A DNA stretch of 64,000 nt from Candidatus Sumerlaeota bacterium. Lineage in GTDB: Bacteria; Sumerlaeota; Sumerlaeia; JAFGJS01. The DNA lies in assembly GCA_016928995.1 (NCBI GenBank), contig JAFGJS010000094.1:311-64310 (forward strand), given 5' to 3'. Positions 5,832-35,830 of the stretch are shown one piece after another. Position numbers and translations under genes: made by a program. How positions within the stretch are numbered: position 1 is the first letter of the stretch; each line of letters begins with the position of its first letter. The notes under the pieces are model-generated. The model searched no databases and was not told the DNA's origin. It saw nothing but the letters and a program-made list of their open reading frames with translations.

Positions 5832-5860
5832 CTCTGCGTCTCTGCGTCTCTGCGTTAAAT
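5832..5860. repeat. Single arm of the 8-bp-period repeat family, (CTCTGCGT)x3-TAA
   Basis: CTCTGCGT CTCTGCGT CTCTGCGT TAAAT, directly downstream of the NHL gene stop on the minus strand. Confidence 0.85.
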
Positions 5861-5863
5861 CGG

Positions 5864-6901
5864 TTAAAAAATCTGCACACGGTGGTTGTTCGTGTCGGCG
5901 ATGACGAGCTTGCCTTTCGGCGTCACGGCGACGCCCCAGGGACCGGTGAATTGGCCCGGACCATGGCCGAAGCCGCCCCACAGGCCGATGGAATTCCCCG
6001 CTTGGTCGAACGCCTGAATGCGGTTGTTGCCGTATTCGCACACGAAAATCCGCCCCTGTGAATCGACGGCGATGTCATAAGGGAATTTCATCTCCCCCGT
6101 CTGCTGGCCCAGTCCGCCAAAGGCCAGCAGGAACTTGCCGTCCATGTCGAACGCCTGGATGCGGTGATTGCTGGAGTCCGCGACATAGATGCGGCCGGCG
6201 CCGAGAGTGATGGACATCGGGCGATGAAACTGCCCCGGCGCGTCGCCCATGCGGCCCCATTGCTTGATGAACGTTCCGTCCGGTCCGTACTTCAGCACGC
6301 GGTCCCAGGTCAGCTCGCCGTATTCCGTGACGTAGAAGTTGCCGTCGTCGTCGCGTACTACGTCGGTGGGGTAAACCATGCCGCCGTTCTCATAGCCGTA
6401 CTCGCCGAACTGCATGATTTTTTCGCCCGCAAGGTTGTACATCAGGATGCGATTGTAATGCGTGTCGGCCATGACCAGATTGTCGTCCTTGTCGAATGAG
6501 CAGCCGGTCGGCGTGCCCTTGGTGAACTCAGGGAGTTGCCAGATTTTCAGCAGTTTGCCCTCGGCGTTGAAAATCTGCACATTGCCCGCGCGGTCAATCA
6601 CGGCGATGCGATTTCCCTTCGCGTTGATCGCGATAGCGCGCGGCTTGACGAACAGACCGTTGTCATTGCCCCGACCGCCGATGATCAGCGAAGGCTGCTT
6701 GACCGGTAAATGATTGACGTTGCATCCCGCGAGCCAAAGACTGAAAAGCAGAACGATCAAGATAAAAAGAAGTATGAAAACGATAAAACGAAAACTGAAC
6801 GCTGGTCTGCTCTCGTCGCGGTTTTCGCGCAATCTTTTCTGCGCGTCAGGCTGCTGACGTTTCTTTTTTGAAAGCGCAGATGCCACTATGAACCAATTCA
6901 T
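5864..6901 (-). CDS. NHL-repeat (6-bladed beta-propeller) protein, probable lipoprotein or membrane-anchored
   Basis: Repeated G-x-F-x-x-P-x-x-I/V...IYVADSSNHRIQAF units; hydrophobic stretch ending in LAGC. Exact start uncertain. Confidence 0.85.
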   Translation of the reverse strand: MNWFIVASALSKKKRQQPDAQKRLRENRDESRPAFSFRFIVFILLFILIVLLFSLWLAGCNVNHLPVKQPSLIIGGRGNDNGLFVKPRAIAINAKGNRIAVIDRAGNVQIFNAEGKLLKIWQLPEFTKGTPTGCSFDKDDNLVMADTHYNRILMYNLAGEKIMQFGEYGYENGGMVYPTDVVRDDDGNFYVTEYGELTWDRVLKYGPDGTFIKQWGRMGDAPGQFHRPMSITLGAGRIYVADSSNHRIQAFDMDGKFLLAFGGLGQQTGEMKFPYDIAVDSQGRIFVCEYGNNRIQAFDQAGNSIGLWGGFGHGPGQFTGPWGVAVTPKGKLVIADTNNHRVQIF

Positions 6902-6959
6902 CGGATGTTCAGCCCTCGTATGGATATTACATTTTTAACATTCATTTTTAATTTGAGTT

Positions 6960-6983
6960 CTCTGCGTCTCCGCGCCTCTGCGT
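6960..6983. repeat. Single arm of the 8-bp-period repeat family
   Basis: CTCTGCGT CTCCGCGC CTCTGCGT, 11 nt downstream of the AAA ATPase stop on the minus strand. Confidence 0.8.
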
Positions 6984-6994
6984 GAGACATTTTA

Positions 6995-8800
6995 TCATCG
7001 GACGCCCTGCTCCTCGAGATGGCGGATTTCCTCGGCCCAGCGTTGGCGCGCGGATTCGTCGATCTCCGGCTCGGGCAACAGGCTGCGGCGTGTGCAGTTC
7101 ACCAGCGCCTGCAGCGTCTGGTAGCGGCGCGTGTCGCTGATCGCGGGCGGCAGATGGTCTTCAACGACCTTGAGCGCACCCTCAAATTCGAGCGCGCCGC
7201 CCTTGGCTTTGGCCAGCAACTCGGAACGCAACGACGCAAAACTCGCGCTGGAAGCGTTGGGCAACGCCTCGCTAAGCCGGGAGATTTCCTCCGGTTGCGG
7301 CGCGCGTCCGAGCGCCTTTTCCACCGCCCAGATAATGAACTCGCGGCGGTCCTCGCCCTCGGGATCGAGCACGGGAACAATCAGATCGCCCACGCGGCCG
7401 GGACGGCGGATGTCAGGCGAGAGCAGGTGGATGCGCGCGGTCATCAGCAGCCAGATCACGCGGCCGCGCAGTTGTGGATCGCTCATCATCGCCTGCACCT
7501 TGCCAGTCAGGCGGCGCTCCGTGGAGTGCGCATCGGCGCCCACTCCGCCGAGCTGCGTGTCCGCCTCATCGAGAAAGATCACGACCTTGTCGAGCGCCTG
7601 CAGCACACGGCGCAGGCGCTCGAAAATCACGTCGGTCTGGCCGTACCACTGGCTGCGGATGTTCTTCAACACGAGCACGACCATGTCCAGTTCGCCGGCC
7701 ACGGCTTCGAAAATGTACGTCTTGCCGCCGCCGATGGGGCCGCCGACCGCCGCGCCCGGCAGCGCATCCGGACCGGCGGACTTGAATCGCGGAATCATCT
7801 CTTCGCGCAGGAATTGCTTCAACTTGCCGAAGCCGATCAGGTCGTCGAGCGAATGCGTTGGCTTTTTGAATTCCACAATGTCGTCGCCGAGCTGCGCTTG
7901 AATGAAGTCTTCGACCTTGGCGATCACGTCATCGAGTTCCAGCGGCCGGTCTTGATACGCCGCGCCCTTGAGCAGCTGCATCAGCGCATGCAGCGACAGC
8001 CCGGCGGTGTAGCGCACGAGATCGTCCTGCGTGCTCCAGAATTTCAGGCGGCCTTCGGCGTCGTGCGCGCGGTAAAACCACTCGATAAAACGGCGGCGCG
8101 CGTCGGCGTCCGGCGCGGGGATGTCCGCTTGCAGCAGCTGCGGCAGCCGCGCCACGCGCTGGTTGAGCTGGCTGCGTGATTCGGCGATCATCACGACGCT
8201 GTCCTGCGCGTTCATGAAGCCCGGATCGCTGAACCAGTCGTGGCAGATGCTCACGCGATGCCGGTCGGCTTCGGATAGGCGGCTGATCTCCCCTTCCGGG
8301 ATGATCATGTCCGCGCCTTCGATCAGAATCAGCAGGTTCTCGCGCAGCATCGGTTCGCCGTTGATCACGGTGCGCGAGCACATGCACATCTGGCGCAGCG
8401 TTTCGAGCGCGACGGTGGGCATGCCGATGGCTTTTTGCAGATTGGCGTCAAAGGACTGGCTCAGCGCGTCGAGCTCGGCTTTCATGCGCTGCTGTTCGAG
8501 CATCTTCTTGATCGCGAGTTCGTTGGAATCCATGCCCGTGCGCCAGCGCAGCCAGGCCTCGCGGAGCTTGTCGCGGTCGGCTTCGCGCACGAAACGGATC
8601 GGGCCGTTGAGTTCGTAAACGACCGGAATCACGCCGTCGAGGGTCCATTTCGCCGCGAGCAATTCGATCAACGGCGTGTAGTCGTCGCGCTCCTCGCAGA
8701 AAAAAAGGTCATGGATCGCGCCGCACAGCAGCAGCGAGCGCGTCTGGCCGGAATTCAGAATCCGCCCCGCCTGCCGCCAGAATTCCAGGTTATCCGTCAT
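6995..8800 (-). CDS. Classical-clade AAA+ ATPase with a degenerate N-terminal AAA-like domain and an active C-terminal domain
   Basis: Walker A GPIGGGKT, pore loop RSQWYGQTD, Walker B VIFLDEAD, second region of homology LSPDIRRPGR. N-terminal half has degenerate motifs (LLLCGAIHD, LILIEGAD). ATG 8800 lies 9 nt after GGAG. Confidence 0.88.
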   Translation of the reverse strand: MTDNLEFWRQAGRILNSGQTRSLLLCGAIHDLFFCEERDDYTPLIELLAAKWTLDGVIPVVYELNGPIRFVREADRDKLREAWLRWRTGMDSNELAIKKMLEQQRMKAELDALSQSFDANLQKAIGMPTVALETLRQMCMCSRTVINGEPMLRENLLILIEGADMIIPEGEISRLSEADRHRVSICHDWFSDPGFMNAQDSVVMIAESRSQLNQRVARLPQLLQADIPAPDADARRRFIEWFYRAHDAEGRLKFWSTQDDLVRYTAGLSLHALMQLLKGAAYQDRPLELDDVIAKVEDFIQAQLGDDIVEFKKPTHSLDDLIGFGKLKQFLREEMIPRFKSAGPDALPGAAVGGPIGGGKTYIFEAVAGELDMVVLVLKNIRSQWYGQTDVIFERLRRVLQALDKVVIFLDEADTQLGGVGADAHSTERRLTGKVQAMMSDPQLRGRVIWLLMTARIHLLSPDIRRPGRVGDLIVPVLDPEGEDRREFIIWAVEKALGRAPQPEEISRLSEALPNASSASFASLRSELLAKAKGGALEFEGALKVVEDHLPPAISDTRRYQTLQALVNCTRRSLLPEPEIDESARQRWAEEIRHLEEQGVR

Positions 8801-8820
8801 AATGCGCAACTCCGAAAACC

Positions 8821-9278
8821 TTTTTTTTTAACGCAGAGACGCGGAGACACAGAGGTCTTACTCCTGCAATTGGTTGACGACGCGATAAATACCGTCCTTT
8901 AAAGCCTTTTCGCCAAAATTAAGGATCAAACCCAATTGAAGTTTGGATAGGCGCAAATAAGTAAGCAATTGGGCCTTGAAAATATTATTAAACTCTGAAG
9001 TTGCCTTGCATTCAACAATGACTCTATCCTCAACAAGCAAATCGATACGGTATTTCGACTGTGTGGATTTGTTTTTATAAATCACCGGCAATTCTAATTG
9101 CCGAACAACCTTCATACCGCGTTCATGCAATTCCATAACCAGACATTCTTCATATACACTCTCCAGCAATCCTGGACCGCCTAAAGTTCTATGCACTTCA
9201 ATCGCAGAGCCAATGATGACATCGGTAATTTGATTCAGTTCCATTTATCTGCGTCTCCGCGTCTCTGCGTTAAAAAAA
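8821..9278. mobile_element. GxxExxY nuclease cassette bounded by ~30-bp inverted arms, inserted between the pspA-like and AAA ATPase genes
   Basis: Left arm TTTTTTTTTA-ACGCAGAG ACGCGGAG ACACAGAG (8821-8854); right arm ATCTGCGT CTCCGCGT CTCTGCGT-TAAAAAAA (9247-9278). The AT-rich CDS fills almost all the space between them. Mobility is inferred. Confidence 0.6.
8858..9244 (-). CDS. GxxExxY protein (PD-(D/E)XK nuclease superfamily)
   Basis: NQITDVIIGSAIEVHRTLGGPGLLESVYEECL (GxxExxY), YRIDLLVEDRVIVECKA (D...ExK), AQLLTYLRLSKLQLGLILNFG; 128 aa. Confidence 0.95.
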   Translation of the reverse strand: MELNQITDVIIGSAIEVHRTLGGPGLLESVYEECLVMELHERGMKVVRQLELPVIYKNKSTQSKYRIDLLVEDRVIVECKATSEFNNIFKAQLLTYLRLSKLQLGLILNFGEKALKDGIYRVVNQLQE

Positions 9279-9282
9279 TCGG

Positions 9283-10119
9283 TCATTCCGGCAGTTTCGC
9301 GTCGGGCGCGTCTTGTTGCGGTTCGGCTTGTTCCTGCGGCGCGGCGTCGGCTTGTTCGGCCAGGCCAACGAGGCGCTCAAACTCGGTGTTGCTTTGCGAC
9401 TCCATCGCGTAACGCAAAAATTCATCCTCCTGCAACTTGGTATCCGTGCCGGCGAGTTCCTTGGAGAGTTTGGCCTCGGCCTTGATCTCGTTGCGCAACC
9501 GGCGCAGGCGCTGAAGCTCCTCGCTCGATTTGTCCACGGCGATACCGCTGAGCAGATCGTTGACTTCTTTCTCCTGCTTGGCCGAGATGATATCGGCGAC
9601 GGCTTCGCTCGATTCGGAGCGGATCTGTTCGATCTCCTGCATGTGGTCCTTCAACTGCAGTTTGTGCTCCGTGATGCTCTTGGTGTACTGCTCGACGTCC
9701 GTCTCCAGCTCAGCGATGTACGTCTGCTTTTCCTGCAGCGAAGATGTAAAGTCGTTGTACGCGCCAAGGCACTTCATGTAGTCGTCGTCGCGCTTGACAT
9801 CGTCCTCCGCGGCGCCTTGCTGCGTCAGCTGCTGCACGCGCTGCCGGGCTTTGGCCAGCGCACCGGCTTTCAGGTTTTCCAGCCGCTCCACTTCGCCGGT
9901 GAGCTGCTTGAGGCGTTCGATTTTTTGCTCCTTCTGCGCCACGAGCGCGCCAAGGGCCTGCTTGTACTGGTCGATCTGCTGCGTGCGTTTTTTGATGATG
10001 CGCTCGTACTTCGTGCGGATCGCCCCGGCGTCGGTGTCCATGCCGCGCCGTGAAGAATCGATCCTGCCTGTCAATAAATCGCCCAACGACCGGAACCAAC
10101 GTCCAATTGCGCCGAACAT
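9283..10119 (-). CDS. PspA/IM30(Vipp1)-like, ESCRT-III-fold coiled-coil protein
   Basis: Amphipathic N-terminal helix MFGAIGRWFRSLGDLLTG, long helical hairpin, C-terminal helices (LQEDEFLRYA...EFERLVGL) and a low-complexity tail; AAGGAG RBS; flotillin/YqiJ context. Confidence 0.7.
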   Translation of the reverse strand: MFGAIGRWFRSLGDLLTGRIDSSRRGMDTDAGAIRTKYERIIKKRTQQIDQYKQALGALVAQKEQKIERLKQLTGEVERLENLKAGALAKARQRVQQLTQQGAAEDDVKRDDDYMKCLGAYNDFTSSLQEKQTYIAELETDVEQYTKSITEHKLQLKDHMQEIEQIRSESSEAVADIISAKQEKEVNDLLSGIAVDKSSEELQRLRRLRNEIKAEAKLSKELAGTDTKLQEDEFLRYAMESQSNTEFERLVGLAEQADAAPQEQAEPQQDAPDAKLPE

Positions 10120-10149
10120 AGTATCGCTCCTTATTCGCTATTTGCTTTG

Positions 10150-10292
10150 TTTAACGCAAAGACGCAAAGGCGCAGAGATATCGTCAGAGCTGAAATTACT
10201 GTGTTGATTGCAAAGCGCCGTTCAAAAAAACCATAATCGATTTCCCATCAAAATCCCTTTGCGCCTTTGCGTCTCTGCGTCTTTGCGTTAAA
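10150..10292. repeat. Paired inverted 8-bp-period arms around a ~80-bp AT-rich non-coding spacer (empty cassette)
   Basis: TTA-ACGCAAAG ACGCAAAG GCGCAGAG (10154-10177) and CTTTGCGC CTTTGCGT CTCTGCGT CTTTGCGT-TAA (10257-10288). Confidence 0.85.
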
Positions 10293-10831
10293 TTTTTCTT
10301 TTTTTGAAACCTATTTTTTCTTTCGCTGTCTATGATATTGAAACAACAGGGAACGGAAAAAGTTCCCATAAAACGCACGAGTCTCTTCGGAGTTTTCCGC
10401 GCATGGCGCGTCAGCGCGGAAATCTTGGAGGAGACGCGGCGAAGGAACGCAGCACAAGGTTCGCCTGCCTCTTCCGATGCGTTTGCGGCCATATCAGGCT
10501 GTCCGCATCCGGCGCACGGGTTTTCCCGGCATGGCGAGCGCCTCACGCGAAAGGCGCTGATGCCGGCCGGGACGCCAGACAAATAACCCAAATATTGTTT
10601 GCATTTCGGCCTGTTTTCTTGAAACTAGACCATGTGCCGCGTTGAAGGCAATCATTTTCCACGCGGCGCATGCATGGCGCGGGCGTCCTTGCCTGGCGCC
10701 GAATCGCAGGCGGCGCGCCTGCCCTCGTTCCCGCGATCCACGCCGGTGGTTTTTGCTTCGCGCGCACGGGCCGAAGCGAATTTCAAGAAAACGCCAGATT
10801 TTAGAAAGTCCGCCCAACGGAGGACAGAACG

Positions 10832-11584
10832 ATGATGGAATTCATCGGCATGTGCTTTGCGACGCAGAATGTGCTTTATACAATTCTGCTGATCTGCGTC
10901 CTGCTCTATTGGTGCATCTACATCACGGGCGCGTTTGGATCGGAAGCGCTCGACCTGCATCTGGATGGGGGGGCGGATGTGGGTGCGGATGCGGATGTGG
11001 ATGTGGGCGGCGTGGATCTCGACGCCGATGCAGGCGGCGAGCTGCATGTTGACGGCGACCTGCATGCGGATGGTTTGGACGCCGATGCGAGCGCGGATGG
11101 CGCGCATGTCGTGGCGCACGAGGGCGGAGACGCCCTGATCAGCACGTTGCGCTTTGTCTGGGCCGGCGAAGTGCCGGTGACGCTGATCTTCACAATCCTG
11201 ATTTTCATGATGTGGGCGTCTTCGATGATGGCTCACAGCATCCTGGGATCGCATTACACGCTGTGGATGTCGCTCTCGCTGATCCTGCCGAACTTTGTGC
11301 TGGGATTGATTCTTACGCGCCTGGCGTTGTGGCCGTTCGTCCCGCTGTTGCGCAACGTGTTTCAATCCGACAGCGATGAAAAACCAGTGATCGGCCATTC
11401 ATGCCGGGTAGTGTCGATGAGCGTGACAGAGGCTCACGGCCAATGCGAAGTGGATTACGAGGATCAATCGATCGTGCTGCAGGTTCGGTCGGCCAGCGGC
11501 GAAACGTTGCGCAAAGGCGACCTGGCCCTAATCAGCCACTACAATAAAGAAAAGGATGCATACATCGTGACGAAGATCGAGTAG
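10832..11584 (+). CDS. YqiJ/NfeD-like membrane protein with C-terminal OB-fold (flotillin partner)
   Basis: N-terminal TM, Asp/His-rich loop, GEVPVTL motif, further TMs, C-terminal VIGHSCRVVS...GQCEV...VLQVRS...LRKGDLALI; directly upstream of a flotillin. Confidence 0.8.
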   Translation: MMEFIGMCFATQNVLYTILLICVLLYWCIYITGAFGSEALDLHLDGGADVGADADVDVGGVDLDADAGGELHVDGDLHADGLDADASADGAHVVAHEGGDALISTLRFVWAGEVPVTLIFTILIFMMWASSMMAHSILGSHYTLWMSLSLILPNFVLGLILTRLALWPFVPLLRNVFQSDSDEKPVIGHSCRVVSMSVTEAHGQCEVDYEDQSIVLQVRSASGETLRKGDLALISHYNKEKDAYIVTKIE

Positions 11585-11681
11585 CAAACATCAGCCGAAA
11601 CAATCGCGCTTGTGAGTGCGTTTAAATCGAAAATAAAATCATAATACTTCATATCTTTCACATCGGAAGGAGACGCAAGCA

Positions 11682-13850: not shown

Positions 13851-13859
13851 CGCGAGAAC

Positions 13860-13889: not shown

Positions 13890-13908
13890 TTCAAAAGGAT
13901 AACTAGTC

Positions 13909-14103: not shown

Positions 14104-14150
14104 CCCGGCCATTCTGAAGGGCTTTCAATCACGATTGAAGAAATTGAACC

Positions 14151-24455: not shown

Positions 24456-24613
24456 TTCTTGCTCTCGCTCTTGCTCATGCTCTTGCTCGTAATCGAATCC
24501 AGGCATCCGGCCTTGGAATTCGAATTTAAATATCTCACGCTGCGTTGAAGCGAAATTTTCGGTTGCGCGGCGGTTTACTAGAGCAAAAGCAAGAGCAGGA
24601 GCAAGAGCAAGAA
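24456..24613. repeat. Paired inverted 6-bp-period arms (CTTGCT)n ... (AGCAAG)n around a ~90-bp spacer
   Basis: CTTGCT CTCGCT CTTGCT CATGCT CTTGCT (24458-24487) and AGCAAA AGCAAG AGCAGG AGCAAG AGCAAG (24582-24611). Confidence 0.85.
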
Positions 24614-28153: not shown

Positions 28154-28486
28154 TCAGCCGATACGGCGAAGGCGAGTGGTCAGACGGATCTCGCTGAGAA
28201 TGGTTTGCACCCTCCGCGCTTCGGCGTGGGTGGTGATGATGATGAGGCTCTTCTGCATTTTTTCGACGCGCTCCACGATGCCGTCAGCCATTTGCGCGCC
28301 GCATTGCAGCGCCTTCATAACCTGATGCACCACATCCTCACGGTAGTGGCAGGTGTCGTCGTAAAGCACCACGCCCCAGCCCTCTCCCGGCGACAGGTGC
28401 GTTTCCAGGAGTTCATTCAAATGCGACCAATCCGGCTGCTGCGCTTCACTGGAGTTGTCCATTGGTTCGGACATTTTTTGCCTCAT
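28154..28486 (-). CDS. ClpS-like N-degron adaptor (divergent)
   Basis: WGVVLYDDTCHYREDVVHQVMKAL...ADGIVERVEKMQKSLI...EARRVQTILSEIRLTT matches the ClpS core pattern. Start may be 28474. Confidence 0.65.
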   Translation of the reverse strand: MRQKMSEPMDNSSEAQQPDWSHLNELLETHLSPGEGWGVVLYDDTCHYREDVVHQVMKALQCGAQMADGIVERVEKMQKSLIIITTHAEARRVQTILSEIRLTTRLRRIG

Positions 28487-28787
28487 TCAATCTTTCTGAA
28501 CGTATATAATACGGCAAAGATATGCCTTTTTTTGGGAAAATTCAATTATTTTCTACAGGAACGCGAGCCGTTGCGATTCACAATTTTGACGATTGATACA
28601 AAAGAAGTTGGAGCGGCGCCACTGATGCAGAGAATCCAAAACAGGCGGAAAAACGCCGGTTTCTTGAAAACGGGATCAATGGCGATGGATACAATCCATC
28701 AGGCTCTCTTTATGCGCGTAACAATAGTGATGATAGTGAATAATCCTTGATTTTACACGCAGGGCTTTCTACGGTTTTGAACGGCTG

Positions 28788-30203
28788 ATGCATGACCTTA
28801 TGCCAGAACGCGGGAAGGTTCGAAAGTTGGAAACTTTTCGTTTAACATATTTCATCAAGCGTTTGCGCGGGTTCCTACAACGGAGCGATTTTTCCTCCAT
28901 GCGTCTGCTGCTGGCCGACTACAGCGCGCCGGAAATCGGCGATTTGTTCGAACAGCTGGAGTTGGATGAGCAGCTGAAAATTCTGCGCAATCTGGACATT
29001 GAAGATGCGGTGGATATTTTCGCCTGCCTGGAGATCGAGCAGCAGCTGGCGCTGATGAGCGAATTCCGCCAGGAACGCGCCGTGCATTTTCTTCAGGAGA
29101 TGGATCCGGACGACCGGACGGACCTTTTGCAGCGGCTCCCGGATGAAGCGGCTCAGGCGCTGTTCGAGAAACTCCCGGAGGAAGACCAGAAGGAAGTCAG
29201 CGAGCTGATCCGCTACGAGGAGTCGAGCGCTGGCGGCATCATGACCACGGAATATGCCTGCGTGCCGTCAGACGTTTCGGCGGGCGAAGCGCTGGAGATC
29301 ATCCGCTCCAAGCACGAAGATATCGAGATGTCGTGGTATGTTTACGTCGTGGACGATGAGAAGCGGCTGGCCGGAATCCTCACGCTGCAAAAACTGCTGC
29401 TCAATCCGCCGGATACGCCGGTGGAAGAGTTCATGATGCCGCATCCGATCAAGGCCACGCACGACATGGACCAGGAGGATGTGGCGCGCGAGATGGTGAA
29501 ATACGACCTGCTGGCCATGCCGGTGGTCGATTATCAGGATCATATGCTCGGAATCGTGACGTTCGACGACGTGGCCCGCGTGATCGAGGACGAGGCGACG
29601 GAGGATTACGAGCTGTTCGGCGGCGTCATTGCGTCCGACGAAACATACGACAAGGCCAGCATCTGGGGCCTGGTGAAGGAACGGCTCCCGTGGCTGGCCA
29701 TTCTGCTCTTGCTCGGTTCGCTGAATGAGTTCGTCGTCTCCTATTACGCCGGTAAAATCGACTTGGGATTGATGGCGATCCTGACCGGCTTCTTCCCCAT
29801 GGTGCAGTCAACGGCGGGCAACGCCGGCACGCAGTCCGCGGTGATTATCATCCGCGGCATCGCCACGGGCGAGATCAACTACCGCGCGATCGGACTGGTC
29901 TTCGGCAAGGAAGTGCTGGTTGGACTGGCTCTGGGTCTGCTGATCGGCTTGCTGGCTTTCGCGCGGGTGGCGCTGTTCAACCATCAAATGCGCCTGATCG
30001 TCAGCGTCGTCGCGGGCAGCACGATCCTGATTCAGATTTTCTTCTCCACAATGTTCGGCGCGCTGCTGCCGATGATCGTCAAACGCATCGGCCTTGATCC
30101 GGCCACGATGTCAAGCCCGTTGATCACCACGACAGTGGACCTGCTCACCGCGGCGGTGTACCTGAACATGGCCATCATCGTCAGCCACATGCATCACATG
30201 TGA
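28788..30203 (+). CDS. mgtE: Magnesium transporter MgtE
   Basis: Helical N-domain (MDPDDRTDLL), SAGGIMTTEY, CBS pair, RLPWL, GNAGTQS, DPATMSSPLITTTVD. Confidence 0.95.
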   Translation: MHDLMPERGKVRKLETFRLTYFIKRLRGFLQRSDFSSMRLLLADYSAPEIGDLFEQLELDEQLKILRNLDIEDAVDIFACLEIEQQLALMSEFRQERAVHFLQEMDPDDRTDLLQRLPDEAAQALFEKLPEEDQKEVSELIRYEESSAGGIMTTEYACVPSDVSAGEALEIIRSKHEDIEMSWYVYVVDDEKRLAGILTLQKLLLNPPDTPVEEFMMPHPIKATHDMDQEDVAREMVKYDLLAMPVVDYQDHMLGIVTFDDVARVIEDEATEDYELFGGVIASDETYDKASIWGLVKERLPWLAILLLLGSLNEFVVSYYAGKIDLGLMAILTGFFPMVQSTAGNAGTQSAVIIIRGIATGEINYRAIGLVFGKEVLVGLALGLLIGLLAFARVALFNHQMRLIVSVVAGSTILIQIFFSTMFGALLPMIVKRIGLDPATMSSPLITTTVDLLTAAVYLNMAIIVSHMHHM

Positions 30204-30337
30204 ATTTCCTTGATCGCCGGGCGGCAATCACATAAATCTTAATGTAACGATATTATATGATGCCGAATACCACAGAAAGCAATCTGGCGGAGTGGAACGT
30301 TATGCCCGCCGGTCGCGCCGGAGCTAAAACGAAAAAA

Positions 30338-31702
30338 ATGAAACTTCTCAAACGATTAATCCCCGCCGTCCTGATGACGTTGTTCGTGCTGCCGCAATGC
30401 GGCTGTCTCCAAATGGAGGCTTTGCGCAAGGAAAACGGGCAGCTGCGCAAGTTGAACTCCGAACTGGAGGAACAAAACGAGAAATTCAAAACCAACTATT
30501 ACAAGTTGCTTGAACAGAAAAACCAATTGGAAGGCGAGCAACAGAAAGACATTAAAGCGCTTGAGGCCCAGGTGAAACGTTATCGCGACCTGAAATCCGA
30601 ACGTGAGACCTCGCTGGAGGAAAACATCCGCCAGTTGAACTTGCAGCATCAGGGCAAACTGGACGAACAGTCGGGCGAGATCAAACGCCTGAACGACAAA
30701 ATCGTGGACCTGGAGTCGCAAGTGGAGAATGCGAAATCGGCGTTGGCGCAAGCCTCGAACGAAAAAGCGGAATTGCAAAAGAAACAAACCGAATTAGCCG
30801 GCGAACTCGAAACCGCGAAACAGGCGCTGGACGCCAAGGAGCATGAGCTCAAACAGTACACGCAGGTGAAAGGCGACTTGCAGCAGAAAATGGATGAGGC
30901 GCAAAAAACCGCCGCCAACAAGGACGCGACGATTGACGAACTCAAGAAAGAAATCGTCTCCTTGAATGAAAAAATCGAGGATTTGACGGACGACTTGACC
31001 AGCCGCGATGAACGGATTGCGCACTTAAGCAAAGAGAAAAACGTCACGGATCAGGAATTGAAGGATAAAAAGCAGCGCGAGGCGGAAATCGCGCAAAAGA
31101 TCGCCAAACTCGAACAGGCGAATCAGGAGCAGGGAGACGCCCCGCCGGAGGAAATCGCCCAGCGCAAGGCGGAAATCGACCGCCTGACCAAGGAACTGGA
31201 GAGCGTGCGCGCGGAGATGGATAAATCGCCCGCTGAACTGGATCCGGACCTGGCCAAAGTTGAGACGGCCTTGAAGGAAACGCTCAAACCGCAAATCGAC
31301 GCGGGCGAGGTGGAAGTGCTTTGCGACCGGCGCGGCGTCGTGGCGCGCATCAGCAGCGATGTGATTTTCGAACCGGGTTCGGTCGTGATCGACAGCAAAA
31401 TGGAAGGCATGCTGAAACGGCTCGGAACCCAACTCGCGCAATTCAGCGGCAACCCAATCTCCATCGAAGGGCATACGGATAATCAACCCGTGCTCAACCT
31501 GGGATATCCGCACAATCTGGCGCTATCGGCGCAACGCTCCGTGGCGGTGATGCAATTTTTGATTGAACAGGGAGGCCTGGGCGAGCATAATAATGTGCGC
31601 TCCGTCGCGTGGGGCAAGTTGCGGCCTATCGCGCCGAACAACACGCCTGAAAGCCGGAGCAAAAACCGCCGGGTGGAGATTATCGTCGAACCTAAATCTT
31701 AG
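30338..31702 (+). CDS. Lipoprotein with a long coiled coil and C-terminal OmpA/MotB peptidoglycan-binding domain
   Basis: Signal MKLLKRLIPAVLMTLFVLPQCGC; roughly 280 aa of heptad-rich helix; VIFEPGS, ISIEGHTDN, LSAQRSVAV, NRRVEI. Confidence 0.88.
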   Translation: MKLLKRLIPAVLMTLFVLPQCGCLQMEALRKENGQLRKLNSELEEQNEKFKTNYYKLLEQKNQLEGEQQKDIKALEAQVKRYRDLKSERETSLEENIRQLNLQHQGKLDEQSGEIKRLNDKIVDLESQVENAKSALAQASNEKAELQKKQTELAGELETAKQALDAKEHELKQYTQVKGDLQQKMDEAQKTAANKDATIDELKKEIVSLNEKIEDLTDDLTSRDERIAHLSKEKNVTDQELKDKKQREAEIAQKIAKLEQANQEQGDAPPEEIAQRKAEIDRLTKELESVRAEMDKSPAELDPDLAKVETALKETLKPQIDAGEVEVLCDRRGVVARISSDVIFEPGSVVIDSKMEGMLKRLGTQLAQFSGNPISIEGHTDNQPVLNLGYPHNLALSAQRSVAVMQFLIEQGGLGEHNNVRSVAWGKLRPIAPNNTPESRSKNRRVEIIVEPKS

Positions 31703-31730
31703 GCGCCACTCGGTTTACGGCAGGCCTTGA

Positions 31731-31766
31731 AATAAAAACCGCGGCGCGCCGAAACGCCCCGCGGTT
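31731..31766 (-). terminator. Intrinsic terminator of tRNA-Gly
   Basis: Minus strand AACCGCGGGGCG-TTTCGG-CGCGCCGCGGTT-TTTATTT. Confidence 0.7.
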
Positions 31767-31774
31767 ATAAAAAA

Positions 31775-31850
31775 TGGAGCGAGAAACGGGGTTCGAACCC
31801 GCGACCCCCAGCTTGGGAAGCTGGTGCTCTACCAACTGAGCTATTCTCGC
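31775..31850 (-). tRNA. tRNA-Gly (anticodon CCC)
   Basis: Reverse complement GCGAGAATAGCTCAGTTGGTAGAGCACCAGCTTCCCAAGCTGGGGGTCGCGGGTTCGAACCCCGTTTCTCGCTCCA; 76 nt cloverleaf, encoded CCA. Confidence 0.97.
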
Positions 31851-31876
31851 CCTTGTATCGCTTGCTGATGTCATCA

Positions 31877-31906
31877 AGTATGGAGACAAATCGATGGGTG
31901 TGTCAA
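31877..31906 (-). promoter_or_regulatory. Probable sigma70 promoter of tRNA-Gly
   Basis: Minus strand TTGACA-18 nt-CATACT, about 26 nt upstream of the tRNA 5' end. Confidence 0.55.
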
Positions 31907-33990
31907 GAGGCATTCAGCTACGTCAATACTTAAGCGGCCAGCTCAGCGACCAGGTCCACGACTTGGAAAAATCGATCACGACCATTGGCCGTGATGTGAA
32001 TTGCGACATCCGGATTCAGGACGGCAAAACCTCCCGTCTGCACTGCGAGATCATCCTCGAAGACGGCTTCAACGTGCTGATCGACCGGCACAGCACCAAC
32101 GGCACATTCGTCAACAACGCCCGGGTTGTGCACCATATTCTGGAAGCGGGCGACATCATCCAGGTCGGCAACACGCATTTCCTGGTGGAGGGCGCGGCCT
32201 CGACTAAAACCGAGCCGGTGCATTTCGATCAGCAAAGCGAATCCGACATCATCAAGTCGATTCACGTCAAGGACGCCATGCCGCGCTTCGAGCAGCTCGG
32301 GGCTCGCGAGGAATTCAACGGCGAATCGCTGGAAGAGCAGTTCTTCAAGCAATCCGAATACTTTTCAACCCATGACCAGGAAGTGCCGGCGGACTATATT
32401 CCGCGCGTATCGAGCCAGCGCCGTGTCTTGAGCGATTCCGCCATGGAAGCCGAGGGCGGGCATCATCGCCTGGCGCCGCTCGAGCCGAAACCGCGCCCGA
32501 AGCCAAAGGAGGAAGCCCCTCCCCCGGCGCCCAGCGCAGAGGCACAGCCGCCCGTTCCGCCTGAAGCCGAGCAGCTTCTGCCGTCGCAATCTGCGGCGCC
32601 GGAAAAGGCTGCCACGAGCATTGAGCCCCATCCAATGGAAATGCTGCAGGAACTTCGCGTGCTTTACGCCGTGATGGACCGGCTCAATCGGCTGAACAAC
32701 CATGAAGAGCTTTATGACTGCATCGGCCAGATGATCTTCGACGTGTTCAAGAAGACCGAGAACTTCGTGCTGGCCGTATTCCACGAAGGGCAAGCCGATC
32801 CGGACAGTTTTCACGTTGTGCGCAGCTTGCATCAGGGCAACCCCATGGCGGCGGACTCGATCGGCATCAGCCGCACACTGGTGCAGACCGCGATGGAGAC
32901 CCAATCGGGCATCCTGGCTGGCAACGCCTCGAACGATCAGCGCTTCGACGCATCGGAAAGCATGATCCGCTATCAGATCAAGAGCGTGATGTGCGCCCCG
33001 ATGATCAGCGGAGAGCACTGCATCGGCATCGTCGTCGTGGACAATCGCACGGAGCCGTTCTGCTTCACGGAAAAGGATCTGGCGTTATTCACGGCCATGA
33101 CGGCGCAATTCGCCGTGACGCTGGACAAACTGCTGATGACCCACCGGTTGAATCGCGCCTTCCATGAAACGATGCTGTCGCTGATCAACGCCATGGAGGC
33201 GACGGATTCCTACACCCGCGGCCACACACAACGAGTCTGCCAGTACGCCCTGGGCATCGCGCGGCAAATAGGGCTGAATTCCGAACAGCTTTCCGACATG
33301 CAAACGGCGGCGATGCTGCATGACATCGGCAAGGTGGGCATCAAGCAAGGCCTGCTGAATAAAGAAGGCTCGCTCAGCGACACGGAGTTTATCCGCATCA
33401 AGGACCACGTCGAGATGGGCTGCTACATCCTCGAACCCATCGCGTATCTGCGCAAGGTAATCCCGATCATCCGCTCGCATCATGAGCGTTGGGACGGACA
33501 GGGATATCCGGACAACTTGAAGGGCGAAGAGATTCCGCTGCTCGGACGGATTCTGGCCGTCGCGGATTCGCTCGACGCCATGACGACGCAGCGCTCCTAT
33601 AACGATCCGCTCTCCAAGCAGATGGCCGTGCGGCGTTGCCGTGAAGCGGCGGGAACGCAATTCGATCCGAAGGTTGTGGACGCGCTTGAAGAATACATGC
33701 GCCAGTACGACCTGATCACCACGGAAAAAACCTTCATCGGCGATCCGAGCAAATTCCTGCCGCTGAAATTCAACTGGGTTCAGGAGGATTCGGCGCAGAT
33801 AGAACGGCAAGATGACCGGCCGGTGGATCCCAAGGCGCCTTCGGAGCCGTCGCCGTCCATGCCGGCGAGTTTAATGGACTTGATCGAAGCGGAAGCCGAC
33901 GAGGCAAACGGCCGCGAAGCCGATCCAGCCAAGGAAACGATTCGCGCCGACGCTGAATCGCTCGATCTGGAAGATTTGGACCACATCTGA
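31894..33990 (+). CDS. FHA-GAF-HD-GYP cyclic-dinucleotide phosphodiesterase
   Basis: FHA (TIGRD...SRLH...STNGTFVN), Pro-rich linker, GAF (ISRTLV...SVMCAPM), HD-GYP (YTRGHTQRV, LHDIGK, HHERWDGQGYP, ILAVADSLDAMT). Confidence 0.93.
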   Translation: MGVSRGIQLRQYLSGQLSDQVHDLEKSITTIGRDVNCDIRIQDGKTSRLHCEIILEDGFNVLIDRHSTNGTFVNNARVVHHILEAGDIIQVGNTHFLVEGAASTKTEPVHFDQQSESDIIKSIHVKDAMPRFEQLGAREEFNGESLEEQFFKQSEYFSTHDQEVPADYIPRVSSQRRVLSDSAMEAEGGHHRLAPLEPKPRPKPKEEAPPPAPSAEAQPPVPPEAEQLLPSQSAAPEKAATSIEPHPMEMLQELRVLYAVMDRLNRLNNHEELYDCIGQMIFDVFKKTENFVLAVFHEGQADPDSFHVVRSLHQGNPMAADSIGISRTLVQTAMETQSGILAGNASNDQRFDASESMIRYQIKSVMCAPMISGEHCIGIVVVDNRTEPFCFTEKDLALFTAMTAQFAVTLDKLLMTHRLNRAFHETMLSLINAMEATDSYTRGHTQRVCQYALGIARQIGLNSEQLSDMQTAAMLHDIGKVGIKQGLLNKEGSLSDTEFIRIKDHVEMGCYILEPIAYLRKVIPIIRSHHERWDGQGYPDNLKGEEIPLLGRILAVADSLDAMTTQRSYNDPLSKQMAVRRCREAAGTQFDPKVVDALEEYMRQYDLITTEKTFIGDPSKFLPLKFNWVQEDSAQIERQDDRPVDPKAPSEPSPSMPASLMDLIEAEADEANGREADPAKETIRADAESLDLEDLDHI

Positions 33991-34052
33991 AGCCGCACAT
34001 TCAACTGGCGGGCTGATGCGAAGCTCAGACCCGCGGATTGTAGCCTTGCCTC

Positions 34053-35720
34053 ATGCGCCCGCGATTGCTGCTGATTTATCTCACTATTGTGCTCGCCCCG
34101 CTGGGCGTGCTGGCCGCACTCGGTATTCGCATGGCCCAAAGCGAGCATCAAAGCACTCAGCAGCAAATCGAACGCTTGCTGCGCGCTTCGCTGGATTCAA
34201 GCAACGCCCTCGCGGAAGAGCACATCGCCAGCGTCCAGCGCGAAATGCAACGGCTGCTGCCCGAACTTTCGGCGGATCGCACGTTGTTGCGCGAAACCGA
34301 ACGGCGCCACCCGCGCATTTCGCAAATCTTCCTGCTCGACAACGAAGGGACGTTGTTCCATCCATCGCCGAAGGATCCCTCATTGACTGACGATGAGTGG
34401 AGTTTCATCGAACGCACGCGGCGAATCTGGCTGGACAAAGACCTTTACACCATGGCCTTGCAGGCTACAGCCGAATCGCAAAGCAAACGGCAAGTCCAAT
34501 CCGTCTCAAAATCAACTCTGAACGGCGCAAAAAACGGCGCCACATCGCCCATCGTGGATCTGGACCACGGCGAGTACGACGCCGTGCAAGGGCCGGTATT
34601 CGGCTGGTACCCCTGGTTCTGGGGCCGCACGTTCCATTTCATCTGCTGGTATCGCGATCCGGCGGGCAATGTGATCGGCGCCGAACTGAACCGCTCGCGC
34701 TTTCTAGCTGACTTGATCGCGCGGCTGCCGCAAACCAATCCGCAAAAACCCGAGCTGCGGGACGGTCTCATCCGCCTGGTGGATTCCGAGGGGCGCATCA
34801 TCTATCAATGGGGAATGTACCGCCCCAAGACCAAAGACGAAGAGCCTGTCGTCTGGCGCAACTTATCCAAACCGCTCAACGCATGGCGGTTTGAGTACTT
34901 CGCCTCGCTCGACACGCAATACATCAGCTGGAGCACGCTGTTCAACATCATCACCAGCCTGTTCGCCGGCGCCATGGGGCTGGCTGGCCTGGCGATCTAT
35001 TTCTACTATGAAAACACACGCGAGCTGCGCGACGCATCGCAGCGCGTGTCGTTCGTCAATCAGGTCTCGCATGAGCTCAAGACGCCGTTGACCAACATCC
35101 GCATGTACGCCGAACTGCTGGACGACGAGCTCTTCGAAGAAAACGAAAAGGCGCAGCGCTATGCCGAAATCATCGCGCTGGAAAGCCAGCGCCTCACGCG
35201 GCTGATCAACAACGTGCTGAGCTTCAGCCGGCAGAAACGCCAAAAACTAACGCTGCAACTCAGCCGGCAAAATGTGGACGAGACCATCCGCGGCGTGATC
35301 GAGAACTTCGAGCCGTCGCTCGCCGCCGCTGGCATCGAATGCGAATTCCGCGCCGGAGCGGACGCTGAATGCCTGTTCGATTGCGACGCCATTGAGCAGA
35401 TCATCGGCAACCTGCTGAATAACGTGGAAAAGTATGCTGCGCAAGGCAAGCATGCGTTGATCGAAAGCCGCAAGGACGGTTCGACAGTCACGATCACCGT
35501 GACCGATCGCGGCCCGGGGATTCCAATGAAGCAACGGGTGAAAATCTTCGAAGCCTTTTACCGCGTCAATGACGGCCTGACCGACGGCGCGACAGGCACC
35601 GGCATCGGCCTCTGGATCTCGCGCGAACTCGCCCGCAAACACGACGGCGATCTCACGATGCTCGACGCCCCCCAAGGCGCAAGTTTCGAGCTCACCTTCC
35701 GCTGCCAGGATTCGGCATGA
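34053..35720 (+). CDS. Membrane sensor histidine kinase (orphan)
   Basis: Two TMs around an extracytoplasmic domain; H-box VSHELKTPLT, N-box NLLNNVEKY, DRGPGI, GTGIGL. Confidence 0.93.
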   Translation: MRPRLLLIYLTIVLAPLGVLAALGIRMAQSEHQSTQQQIERLLRASLDSSNALAEEHIASVQREMQRLLPELSADRTLLRETERRHPRISQIFLLDNEGTLFHPSPKDPSLTDDEWSFIERTRRIWLDKDLYTMALQATAESQSKRQVQSVSKSTLNGAKNGATSPIVDLDHGEYDAVQGPVFGWYPWFWGRTFHFICWYRDPAGNVIGAELNRSRFLADLIARLPQTNPQKPELRDGLIRLVDSEGRIIYQWGMYRPKTKDEEPVVWRNLSKPLNAWRFEYFASLDTQYISWSTLFNIITSLFAGAMGLAGLAIYFYYENTRELRDASQRVSFVNQVSHELKTPLTNIRMYAELLDDELFEENEKAQRYAEIIALESQRLTRLINNVLSFSRQKRQKLTLQLSRQNVDETIRGVIENFEPSLAAAGIECEFRAGADAECLFDCDAIEQIIGNLLNNVEKYAAQGKHALIESRKDGSTVTITVTDRGPGIPMKQRVKIFEAFYRVNDGLTDGATGTGIGLWISRELARKHDGDLTMLDAPQGASFELTFRCQDSA

Positions 35721-35754
35721 CTATTTGACAAGGATCTTAAGAGAACCTCAAAAA

Positions 35755-35830
35755 TTCAACGCAAAGACGCAGAGGGGCAGAGAGATGATATACGAGTATT
35801 CCTCTGCGCCCCTGCGCCTCTGCGCGATAA
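35755..35830. repeat. Paired inverted 8-bp-period arms with a 19-bp spacer (minimal empty element)
   Basis: ACGCAAAG ACGCAGAG GGGCAGAG (35759-35782) and CTCTGCGC CCCTGCGC CTCTGCGC (35802-35825). Confidence 0.8.

What the first reader, a model, noticed from the sequence alone, without database searches (positions are those of the whole stretch)
5832..35830. Element family with (ACGCAGAG)x3 inverted arms: full, empty and half copies at gene junctions
Seen: eight arms of 3-4 tandem 8-bp units (consensus ACGCAGAG/ACGCAAAG, usually edged by a T-run+TAA) at 5832, 6960, 8831, 9247, 10154, 10257, 35759 and 35802. Paired arms always face inward, enclosing a 387-bp nuclease gene, an ~80-bp spacer or a 19-bp spacer. 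Every junction of the leftward operon carries an arm, three of them 8-12 nt after a stop codon, and none interrupts a CDS. No transposase, integrase or target-site duplication is visible. Inference: a REP/MITE-like or cassette system spread by the GxxExxY nuclease, favouring operon junctions; arm pairing in mRNA could loop out the cargo and limit polarity. I know of no mechanistic description, but cannot rule one out without a literature search.
Basis: partly seen in the sequence, partly recalled or inferred. Interest (0 to 1): 0.85.

Follow-up and report, generated by a model that had tools for sequence, protein, structure and literature searches.

The report
Nuclease gene cassettes with tandem-word arms
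The repeats are the inverted end-arms of a widespread family of tiny hairpin elements that travel with a small nuclease gene across bacterial phyla, a partnership that the literature searched does not describe.

Summary
All eight arms of three to four RCRCRRAG units are at the stated places (0.01 expected by chance). In the window they sit at gene junctions.

They are not private to this operon. The genome holds about 117 such arms, 109 of them outside called genes.

Every one of its eight GxxExxY (PD-(D/E)XK) nuclease genes is flanked by short tandem-repeat arrays, inverted at seven. Across 80 GxxExxY genes from this genome, 30 relatives and five other phyla, 57 have such arms, against 10 of 1000 control segments.

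Arm word type follows protein phylogeny exactly at the deepest split: 26 of 26 CRCRRAG sets in one clade, 13 of 13 CRCRRAT sets in the other.

The window protein's nearest homologues, in a Chloroflexia MAG and an unclassified MAG, carry the same ACGCAGAG arms, and those genomes hold 67 and 19 dispersed arms.

In one relative, arm-gene-arm was copied as a unit. A sister-species allele shows a gene-less hairpin arising by internal deletion.

Best reading: a REPIN/RAYT-like system whose partner is a minimal nuclease rather than a Y1 transposase, related in design to 23S rRNA intervening sequences. Mobilisation by the nuclease is inferred, not shown.

The parts
8821..9278 (-). Complete gene-bearing element: T-run/A, arm, GxxExxY ORF, arm, T/A-run. 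It is a compact cassette with no room for its own promoter.
   Evidence: sequence, ORF; the two ends form a closing stem of about 31 bp in both the MFE and the centroid fold (-158.3 kcal/mol, z -6.1).
8858..9244 (-). GxxExxY / PDDEXK_3 gene, 128 aa, a minimal PD-(D/E)XK nuclease core with G25xxE28xxY31, D68 and E78-x-K80 conserved.
   Evidence: family scores. (invariant residues in 14 sequences). (AF2 pLDDT 95.4). (nearest folds are Cas4, lambda-exonuclease/RecB-type domains and Hjc, all weak, E about 1e-3).
8831..8854 (+). Arm 3 nt downstream of the GxxExxY stop codon. It reads as the pyrimidine form in the minus-strand mRNA.
9247..9270 (-). Arm 2 nt upstream of the GxxExxY ATG and 12 nt after the PspA-like stop. 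Its purine form in the mRNA contains GGAG 10 nt before the ATG, a likely ribosome-binding site that the stem would sequester.
   Evidence: The RBS role is inferred from the sequence.
10154..10288 (.). Gene-less element: a 3-unit arm, a 79-nt spacer and a 4-unit arm, in the 5' leader of the PspA-like gene.
   Evidence: (-54.7 kcal/mol, z -6.9); the spacer shows no detectable GxxExxY remnant.
35759..35825 (.). Short hairpin element, two arms and a 19-nt loop. It belongs to a subfamily with a conserved loop (six copies in the genome).
   Evidence: (-34.1 and -42.5 kcal/mol on the two strands, z -4.5 and -5.9).
5832..5855 (-). Solo (half) arm, three perfect ACGCAGAG units, 8 nt after the NHL-repeat gene's stop. 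No partner within the adjacent sequence.
   Evidence: (no structure on its own).
6960..6983 (-). Solo (half) arm, 11 nt after the AAA ATPase gene's stop.

Best explanation
The arms are the cognate terminal repeats of a cross-phylum family of very small selfish or semi-domesticated cassettes. Their characteristic gene is a ~125-aa GxxExxY PD-(D/E)XK nuclease.

A full element is arm, ORF, arm, where each arm is about three tandem 7-10-nt 'words' with core C-R-C-R-R-A-G in this lineage. Gene-less hairpins and solo arms are non-autonomous or decayed derivatives that accumulate in the short gaps between genes.

Shown:
- The arms are dispersed and intergenic.
- They bracket GxxExxY genes in many genomes and phyla.
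- Arm word type co-varies with protein clade.
- Arm abundance tracks the presence of a gene with cognate arms.
- Arm-gene-arm has been copied as a unit with homology ending at the arms.
- A gene-less hairpin arose from a gene-bearing one by internal deletion.

Inferred:
- The nuclease recognises the repeated words sequence-specifically and cuts at or near the extruded hairpin or single strand. That promotes copying by transposition, or by break-induced copying between arm-bearing sites.
- The cassette has no promoter and is expressed by read-through from the host operon. Its ribosome-binding site lies inside the upstream purine arm.
- In the mRNA the arms pair, which would mask that site and create an RNase III-type substrate, as shown experimentally for the related 23S intervening sequence.
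For: (1) Dispersal. 63 strict matches in this genome against 2 for the backwards control. 117 arms with at most 1 mismatch, 8 of them inside called genes against 83% expected.
(2) Association. 15 of 15 GxxExxY genes sampled from 15 relatives have flanking inverted arms. 57 of 80 near-full-length genes overall score 25 or more, against 10 of 1000 random segments.
(3) Co-variation. On a tree of the 80 proteins the deepest split (SH-aLRT 99) separates all 26 G-type arm sets from all 13 T-type sets. Label changes are 15 against 22.2 and 8 against 12.3 in shuffles, reached in 0 of 500.
(4) Cross-phylum transfer with arms. The window protein's closest homologues (65% and 63% identity), in a Chloroflexia MAG and an unclassified MAG, have ACGCAGAG arms. 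Those genomes hold 67 and 19 strict arms. A genome whose homologue lacks arms holds 0.
(5) Reciprocal test. This genome has no T-type-armed gene and 0 T-type arms. Eleven relatives with such a gene have 3-46. Seven genomes without any GxxExxY match have 0-4 arms of either type.
(6) Unit of copying. Two copies in G001 share a 462-bp block at 96% identity, running from the left arm to 14 nt past the right arm, with unrelated flanks.
(7) Decay route. At the same locus G022 and G010 keep both arms but lack about 300 nt of gene interior, joined at an 8-nt direct repeat.
(8) Selection. Between orthologues the element is 97.2% identical and its flanks 91.2%.
(9) Word conservation. Unit positions 2, 4, 7 and 8 are nearly invariant while 1, 3, 5 and 6 vary between A and G. 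The two arms of a pair match only slightly better than random arms (19.1 against 18.0 of 24). This favours a recognition word over a stem kept up by compensation.
(10) Geometry. The purine arm is upstream of the gene in 40 of 46 cases. Cargo is co-oriented with co-directional neighbours in 7 of 7 cases.
(11) The genome's Y1 transposases have their own, different palindromes.
Against: - No biochemical or genetic evidence shows that the protein binds or cuts the arms.
- No target-site duplication or clean empty site for a G-type hairpin was found.
- 23 of 80 GxxExxY genes show no arms by my score, including 3 of 8 from other phyla.
- Some genomes have many arms without a detected cognate gene: G021 has 59 T-type arms and only an A-type-armed gene, and G005, G028 and G010 have 12-18. 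These assemblies are 88-93% complete.
- Unrelated cargo (DMP19-like, a weak zinc-ribbon match, a weak DUF4279 match, and an ORF with no family) sits between the same arms.
- Four-helix-bundle genes, which are not nucleases, are bracketed the same way in 26 of 27 cases. The bracketed gene therefore need not be the mobilising enzyme.
- Co-variation could reflect co-inheritance alone.
- Related genomes are not independent, so the cross-genome statistics are overstated.
- The medium spacers of this genome show no GxxExxY remnants.
- My gene calls come from a home-made ORF caller.
Confidence: 0.55

Rival explanations
1. The arms are host-serving structural elements of REP-like function: mRNA processing or stability sites, RNase III substrates, or insulators between cistrons. 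The small genes are passengers that happen to be tolerated between them.
For: The elements lie almost only between genes, often 3-15 nt after a stop codon (32 of 110 distances), and mostly between co-directional genes. The paired arms fold strongly. RNase III is encoded. RNase III cleavage inside the repeat stem is shown for the Coxiella 23S intervening sequence (PMC4990558, passages read). Element sequence is better conserved than its flanks.
Against: A purely structural role does not need a specific word, yet the word is conserved across phyla and switches with protein clade. G.U and A.C mismatches are balanced on the sense strand (39 against 43, p = 0.74). The arms of a pair are barely more complementary than random arms. 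Solo arms form no structure. Orthologous operons in relatives do without any arms. Arm families are missing from genomes that lack the gene family.
Confidence: 0.2
2. The hairpins are mobilised by some other enzyme in trans, such as a RAYT/Y1 transposase, another transposase or host recombination. GxxExxY and four-helix-bundle genes are favoured cargo, for example addiction or defence genes.
For: Two unrelated protein families and several other ORFs sit between arms of the same design. The largest family here (TCTTGC, 38 pairs) has no bracketed gene in this assembly. The genome has nine Y1_Tnp matches.
Against: Eight of the nine Y1 genes are flanked by their own classical GC-rich palindromes. 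None is flanked by tandem-word arms, and only one has an RCRCRRAG hairpin within 1.5 kb, about 1.3 kb away. A trans-acting enzyme would not explain why word type follows GxxExxY clade, or why arm abundance follows a gene with cognate arms in distant phyla. The TCTTGC arms do bracket a four-helix-bundle gene in relative G006.
Confidence: 0.17
3. The arms arise locally by replication slippage of short words at palindromes and are not mobile. Similar words in different genomes are convergent.
For: Heptamer and other 5-11-nt tandem repeats are reported as over-represented in many bacteria, and polymerase slippage has been proposed as the cause (as cited in PMC4679880 and PMC4692102, passages read). 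Unit numbers vary from 3 to 5.
Against: The same word with the same invariant positions recurs at more than 100 sites. It recurs in other phyla next to the closest protein homologues. Subfamilies share loop or spacer sequence. A block of arm-gene-arm exists at two loci with unrelated flanks.
Confidence: 0.03

Closest known systems
REP/REPIN with RAYT (REP-associated tyrosine transposase) systems
   Same: A low-copy gene is bracketed by inverted copies of its own repeat. The same repeat is dispersed in intergenic gaps as hairpin-forming doublets and singletons. Repeat type follows gene type. (PMC3116915 and PMC3337134: search listing and abstracts seen. Other details recalled.)
   Different: The bracketed gene is a ~125-aa PD-(D/E)XK nuclease, not a Y1 HUH transposase. 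The arms are three tandem 7-10-nt words rather than a single short GC-rich palindrome. The genes are multi-copy (8 here), each with its own word variant. The elements cross phyla, whereas REPIN-RAYT systems are described as mostly vertically inherited (abstract of 10.1101/2022.05.22.493013). True RAYT-like genes with different palindromes coexist in this genome.
23S rRNA intervening sequences carrying an S23p / four-helix-bundle ORF (Coxiella, Leptospira)
   Same: A small ORF is bracketed by terminal inverted repeats that form a stem of about 28 bp inside a host transcript. In Coxiella the 5' part holds three tandem heptamers (GACAGAT) just upstream of the ORF, and RNase III cuts within the stem. 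The element is called selfish, and an ORF-dependent mobility was hypothesised long ago (PMC4990558, passages read). Four-helix-bundle genes of this genome and its relatives are bracketed by tandem-word arms in the same way.
   Different: The elements here lie between protein genes, not in rRNA. The 23S genes of three relatives have normal length, and the 23S of this genome is not assembled. The ORF here is a nuclease. Gene-less copies are numerous.
Intergenic tandem heptamer arrays: cyanobacterial STRR, Xanthomonas GGGAATC, Beggiatoaceae TAACTGA
   Same: These are short tandem words of about 7 nt, abundant in intergenic regions, patchily distributed across phyla, and with suspected horizontal spread 'but no mechanism evident'. 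In Xanthomonas, 70-75 pairs of arrays per genome lie in convergent (inverted) orientation (PMC4692102 and PMC4679880, passages read). STRR is recalled and also cited there.
   Different: Those reports do not connect the arrays to any bracketed gene family (0 occurrences of 'S23', 'four helix' or 'nuclease' in the passages searched). The TAACTGA arrays are nearly all direct, and they are read as G-quadruplex or translational signals.
MITEs (miniature inverted-repeat transposable elements)
   Same: Terminal inverted repeats, small size, intergenic position and multiple copies. At least one gene-less copy is derived from a gene-bearing element by internal deletion.
   Different: No target-site duplication was seen. 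There is no classical transposase. The arms are built from tandem words.

Membership tests
GxxExxY / PDDEXK_3 protein family (the ORF at 8858-9244) | Profile match above the curated cut-off | tested here: met
   TIGR04256 146 bits (cut-off 35) and PF13366 137.1 bits (cut-off 22)
GxxExxY / PDDEXK_3 protein family (the ORF at 8858-9244) | GxxExxY motif and the PD-(D/E)XK catalytic signature D...E-x-K | tested here: met
   G25, E28, Y31, D68, E78 and K80 are invariant in 14 aligned sequences. The confident model has a nuclease-like alpha/beta core, and the nearest folds are Cas4, lambda-exonuclease/RecB domains and Hjc, all weak. No solved structure matches by sequence.
REP/REPIN-RAYT system | Dispersed intergenic repeats occurring as inverted doublets that can form hairpins | tested here: met
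REP/REPIN-RAYT system | The cognate gene flanked by the repeats is a Y1 (HUH) transposase | tested here: not met
   The bracketed gene is PF13366. None of the nine PF01797 matches in the genome lies between RCRCRRAG or other tandem-word arms, and eight of the nine have their own different palindromes.
REP/REPIN-RAYT system | REP is a single short imperfect palindrome with a conserved 5' tetranucleotide (GTAG; recalled, not from a call) | tested here: not met
   Each arm is three tandem 8-nt words and is not self-complementary. A solo arm does not fold.
23S rRNA intervening sequence (IVS) elements | Inserted in a 23S rRNA helix | tested here: not met
   The elements lie between protein genes. 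The 23S of G009, G012 and G018 are 2966-2980 nt for a 2925-position model. No 23S is assembled in this genome.
23S rRNA intervening sequence (IVS) elements | Terminal inverted repeats forming a long stem around a small ORF | tested here: met
   Closing stem of about 31 bp in the MFE and centroid folds of the 476-nt element
23S rRNA intervening sequence (IVS) elements | The ORF is of the S23p / four-helix-bundle family | tested here: not met
   The ORF here is GxxExxY. Sister elements elsewhere in the genome do carry TIGR02436 genes.
23S rRNA intervening sequence (IVS) elements | Excision from the transcript by RNase III | not testable with these tools
   RNase III is encoded. No usable RNA reads were available.
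MITE | Target-site duplication flanking the terminal inverted repeats | tested here: not met
   The bases next to the arms are palindromic extensions (TTTA/TAAA, CTC/GAG), not direct repeats. No duplication is seen at the ends of the copied 462-bp block.
MITE | Derived by internal deletion from a longer gene-bearing element with the same ends | tested here: met
   Shown for one T-type element in genus g2. Not shown for this genome's own spacers: 0 of 19 gene-less spacers of 45 nt or more show a remnant.
Intrinsic (Rho-independent) terminator | GC-rich hairpin followed by a U-run on the transcribed strand | tested here: not met
   On either strand the T-run precedes the hairpin and an A-run follows it.

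The most novel reading that the evidence does not exclude
GxxExxY nucleases, and in parallel the Avd-like four-helix-bundle 'S23p' proteins, define a previously unrecognised cross-phylum class of mobile cassettes. In this class a very small protein reads three tandem 6-10-nt words in each of two inverted arms. If so, the class would give a common origin and a spreading mechanism to three unexplained phenomena: ORF-bearing 23S rRNA intervening sequences, the abundant intergenic heptamer/octamer tandem arrays of many bacteria (STRR-type repeats), and the large paralogous families of these two small proteins. The word-protein pairing would amount to a simple, evolvable nucleic-acid recognition code.
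Probability: 0.35. Interest if true: 0.9.

Novelty: new variant of a known kind. Interest (0 to 1): 0.8.

Why it matters
PF13366/GxxExxY is a large family listed as function 'Unknown' with many horizontal transfers (PMC3424549, table entry read). The results here attach a concrete, testable partner to it: tandem-word inverted arms that co-vary with protein clade and multiply in genomes that carry a gene with cognate arms.

If the nuclease mobilises or processes these arms, three things follow:
- **A second REPIN-like system.** It would be a second, mechanistically different way for bacterial genomes to fill with hairpin repeats.
- **An explanation for older puzzles.** It would account for intergenic heptamer/octamer arrays and intervening-sequence ORFs, both noted for decades without a mechanism.
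- **A compact recognition system.** A ~125-aa protein paired with three short words shows natural specificity variants (G-type, T-type and A-type words) that could be compared directly.

For annotation, it flags many short intergenic hairpins at operon junctions as element remnants that are likely to affect mRNA processing.

Tried and rejected
The single protein worked but used the only genome-contig scan, so Xanthomonas and cyanobacterial genomes could not be sampled.
- **Empty-site test for the window operon.** The nearest relatives are only in the same class (65-67% protein identity). Their PspA...AAA operon has three extra ORFs and no arms, so they are too distant.
- **Sequencing runs.** Only the probable source metagenome holds the stretch, and no RNA holder is listed. 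Laying its contigs and two metatranscriptome contig sets gave only contigs that break at or match the arms. There is no usable evidence on transcripts, ends or empty alleles.
- **Homodimer prediction** gave no verdict.
- **GxxExxY remnants in this genome's medium spacers.** None was found in the 19 gene-less spacers of the 23 spacers of 45 nt or more, and 0 of 460 shuffled spacers hit.
- **Gene conversion between the two G001 copies** is not needed. Identities (96.1, 97.2 and 94.6%) fit an old duplication.
- **A clean filled-versus-empty site in genus g2.** One site was a nest of several repeat families. Another showed full, half and empty states but with unclear edges.
- **Reverse-transcriptase copying.** The genome has one RT gene with arms at its junctions like other genes, and no specific link.
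- **Intervening sequence in 23S.** None was seen in three relatives.
- **Literature.** Seven searches were answered, and one search failed on term syntax. They covered GxxExxY, PF13366, PDDEXK_3, S23/intervening-sequence protein, STRR, REPIN/RAYT, and heptanucleotide inverted arrays. None found a description of tandem-word arms bracketing GxxExxY genes.


Full report
**Observation**

The eight arms are real and lie where stated. A search for (RCRCRRAG)x3 with up to two mismatches returns exactly these sites, with the four-unit arm at 10257-10288 counted in two registers. The chance expectation is 0.01.

Reading the sequence and ORFs gives this order in the minus-strand transcript:
- a hairpin (purine arm, 79 nt, pyrimidine arm)
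- a PspA-like gene
- an arm
- a 128-aa ORF
- an arm
- an AAA ATPase gene
- a solo arm
- an NHL-repeat gene
- a solo arm
- a 120-aa ORF

Arms begin 8, 11 and 12 nt after three stop codons. The small ORF is wedged between its arms, 2 nt from the ATG and 3 nt from the stop. It is a GxxExxY/PDDEXK_3 protein. The third pair, at 35759-35825, has a 19-nt loop. The T-run/TAA edges extend the palindrome, with T-run 5' and A-run 3' on either strand. That is the opposite of a terminator tail.

**Genome-wide picture**

The window lies in a 4.55-Mb, 161-contig assembly.
- Strict matches number 63 against 2 for the backwards control.
- Allowing one mismatch gives 117 arms. With three mismatches the control becomes noisy (173 against 56), so I used at most one mismatch as the anchor.
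- Adjacent arms are mostly purine-arm-first (43) rather than the opposite order (14).
- Spacers range from 11-41 nt through 55-190 and 280-460 nt to 616 and 775 nt.
- Using a self-trained ORF caller (3135 genes, 83% coding), 8 of 117 arms lie inside genes against 83% of random 24-mers. 32 of 110 stop-to-arm distances are 15 nt or less.
- Elements typically fill the whole gap, 4-35 nt to each neighbour. Of 29 short purine-first pairs, 18 lie between co-directional genes, 6 between convergent genes, 4 between divergent genes, and 1 at a contig end.
- Subfamilies share loop or spacer sequence: a 19-nt loop in six copies, and about 150 nt in three copies.

**The key generalisation**

All eight GxxExxY genes and about eight four-helix-bundle (TIGR02436, Avd-like) genes of this genome are flanked by short tandem-repeat arrays, but with different units. 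By score, seven of the eight GxxExxY genes have inverted arms. The eighth, on contig C127 at 29151, has direct arrays.

A TRF-based scan finds 106 inverted against 23 direct neighbouring array pairs, in at least ten families. The largest is the hexamer TCTTGC, with 38 pairs. The finding's family is therefore one of a class.

**Association with the gene beyond this genome**

- In 15 relatives, 15 of 15 sampled GxxExxY genes have flanking inverted arms of 15 to 83 nt, most with CRCRRAG-like words.
- I then fetched nearly all remaining matches and scored them uniformly. Of 95 HMM hits, 80 were kept. I dropped hits covering fewer than 95 profile positions, hits with internal stops, and hits with short flanks.
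- Of those 80, 57 score 25 or more and 53 score 29 or more. The control is 10 and 3 of 1000 random 350-bp segments.
- Five of eight homologues from other phyla have arms.
- The purine arm is upstream of the gene in 40 of 46 classifiable cases.

**Co-variation**

On a maximum-likelihood tree of all 80 proteins (quick search, LG+G4, few columns, many unresolved forks), the deepest split has SH-aLRT 99. All 26 G-type arm sets (CRCRRAG) belong to one side. All 13 T-type sets (CRCRRAT), 4 of 5 A-type sets and both GGAT-type sets belong to the other. No shuffle of 500 gives clustering this tight. Near-copies contribute to this clustering, but the clean partition at the deepest branch does not depend on them.

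**Abundance follows the gene**

- The seven relatives with no GxxExxY match have 0-2 G-type and 0-4 T-type arms. The 24 genomes with a match have a median of 18.5.
- This genome has no T-type-armed gene and 0 T-type arms.
- Eleven relatives with a T-type-armed gene have 3-46. Two of these, G006 and G017, I counted by eye, because their CRCRAAT-like arms were classed 'other' or 'none' by the automatic rule.
- Exceptions exist: G021 (59 arms), G005 (18), G028 (16) and G010 (12) have no detected T-type-armed gene.
- Kinship among genomes inflates the p-values.
- The cross-phylum test is cleaner. The window protein's closest homologues, in a Chloroflexia MAG and an unclassified MAG, carry ACGCAGAG arms, and those genomes hold 67 and 19 strict arms. 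Two Chloroflexota MAGs with CACAGAG-type arms hold 13 and 7. An Acidobacteriota MAG whose homologue has no arms holds 0.

**Mobility and decay**

In G001, two copies at different loci share a 462-bp block at 96% identity. It starts at the left arm and ends 14 nt past the right arm, and the flanks are unrelated.

The locus of one copy is also occupied in sister species G022 and G010. There both arms remain, but about 300 nt of the gene's interior are missing, joined at an 8-nt direct repeat. That leaves a hairpin with a spacer of about 70 nt.

Between orthologues the element is 97.2% identical while its flanks are 91.2%.

At another orthologous intergenic site, three congeners show a full T-type hairpin, a half copy disrupted by other repeats, and no arm. 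Hairpins also nest inside the loops of other hairpins.

For this genome's own medium spacers no gene remnant is detectable.

**RNA or DNA?**

- The whole cassette folds with the arms as a closing stem of about 31 bp, and the gene-less pairs fold well. RNase III is encoded.
- In the Coxiella 23S intervening sequence, a four-helix-bundle ORF is preceded by three tandem heptamers and bounded by a 28-bp stem. RNase III cuts within that stem (PMC4990558, passages read). Processing of operon transcripts at these arms is therefore a reasonable expectation.
- Selection for the sense-RNA stem is not visible. G.U and A.C mismatches are 39 against 43 over 24 oriented pairs.
- The arms of a pair are only about one position in 24 more complementary than random arms.
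- Four unit positions are nearly invariant and four vary only by transitions. Together with the clade-specific words, this points to recognition of the word itself, most simply by the encoded protein.

**The protein**

The confident model (pLDDT 95.4) is a minimal PD-(D/E)XK core. Its nearest solved folds are Cas4, lambda-exonuclease/RecB-type domains and Hjc, all weak. No structure matches by sequence. The catalytic D...E-x-K is invariant.

**Rivals**

- The genome does have RAYT-like Y1 transposases (nine matches). Eight of the nine are bracketed by their own classical GC-rich palindromes and none by tandem-word arms. The REP-RAYT design is thus present in parallel, but it does not explain these arms.
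- That non-nuclease four-helix-bundle genes share the habit (26 of 27 in relatives), and that other small ORFs occur between ACGCAGAG-type arms, keeps open the possibility that the bracketed genes are cargo rather than drivers.

**Comparison and novelty**

The design is closest to REPIN-RAYT systems and to ORF-bearing 23S intervening sequences. It also overlaps the long-noted intergenic heptamer arrays (PMC4692102 and PMC4679880, passages read).

It fails defining features of each:
- no Y1 transposase
- not in rRNA
- no target-site duplication

My seven answered literature searches found no description linking GxxExxY nucleases to tandem-word arms. PF13366 is listed as of unknown function (PMC3424549, table entry read). 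Supplements and subscription journals were not searchable.

I therefore rate it a new variant of a known kind, with high interest. The anatomy and associations are well supported. The mechanism, nuclease-driven copying, is inferred.

Noticed in passing
window 24457-24612; also 57855-57887: A hairpin of a different family: TCTTGC x5, a 91-nt spacer, then GCAAGA-type x5. There is also a solo TCTTGC array. This hexamer family is the largest in the genome (38 inverted pairs, with spacers of 25-36 or 86-97 nt) and has no bracketed gene in this assembly. In relative G006 the same arms bracket a four-helix-bundle gene.
   Followed up: partly
genome contigs C73:55783-56346, C104:12125-12723, C43:13717-14259, C62:59087-59888, C63:4297-4768 and others: Each four-helix-bundle (TIGR02436, Avd-like 'S23p') gene sits between inverted arrays of its own 6-8-nt tandem word. 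26 of 27 such genes sampled from relatives do the same, mostly with heptamers.
   Followed up: partly
genome contigs C148:2954-3508, C130:25098-25547, C67:2427-2882, C25:78223-78669 and five more: Nine Y1_Tnp (RAYT/IS200-like) matches. Eight are bracketed by their own classical GC-rich REP-like palindromes, so ordinary REP-RAYT systems coexist with the tandem-word elements.
   Followed up: partly
window 6995-10119 (minus strand): The host operon pairs a PspA/IM30-like coiled-coil protein (weak Pfam match, below cut-off) with a 604-aa AAA ATPase whose best named hits are CDC48, CdvC and proteasome-activating ATPases. In relatives at 65% identity, three more ORFs lie between the two genes, where this genome has only the GxxExxY cassette.
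   Followed up: partly
genome contig C37:27948-28973: The genome's single reverse-transcriptase gene (RVT_1, 341 aa, YADD motif) has RCRCRRAG arms or hairpins at both of its junctions, like other genes. No specific link was found.
   Followed up: partly
L131 (G001:C55) 10440-10975 against G022:C21: Hairpins of different word families are nested inside one another's loops, and a classical GTAG-type REP lies among them. Intergenic gaps in this genus act as sinks for several repeat systems.
   Followed up: partly
window 36919-37544: A tandem repeat of period 126 nt (about 3.3 copies, 73-79% matches), probably a 42-residue protein repeat. Not examined.
   Followed up: no
genome contigs C97:164940-165470 and C38:8950-9240: Other cargo between ACGCAGAG-type arms includes a DMP19-like protein (PF14300, E 1.9e-18) and a small protein with only weak zinc-ribbon matches, below the Pfam cut-offs.
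   Followed up: partly
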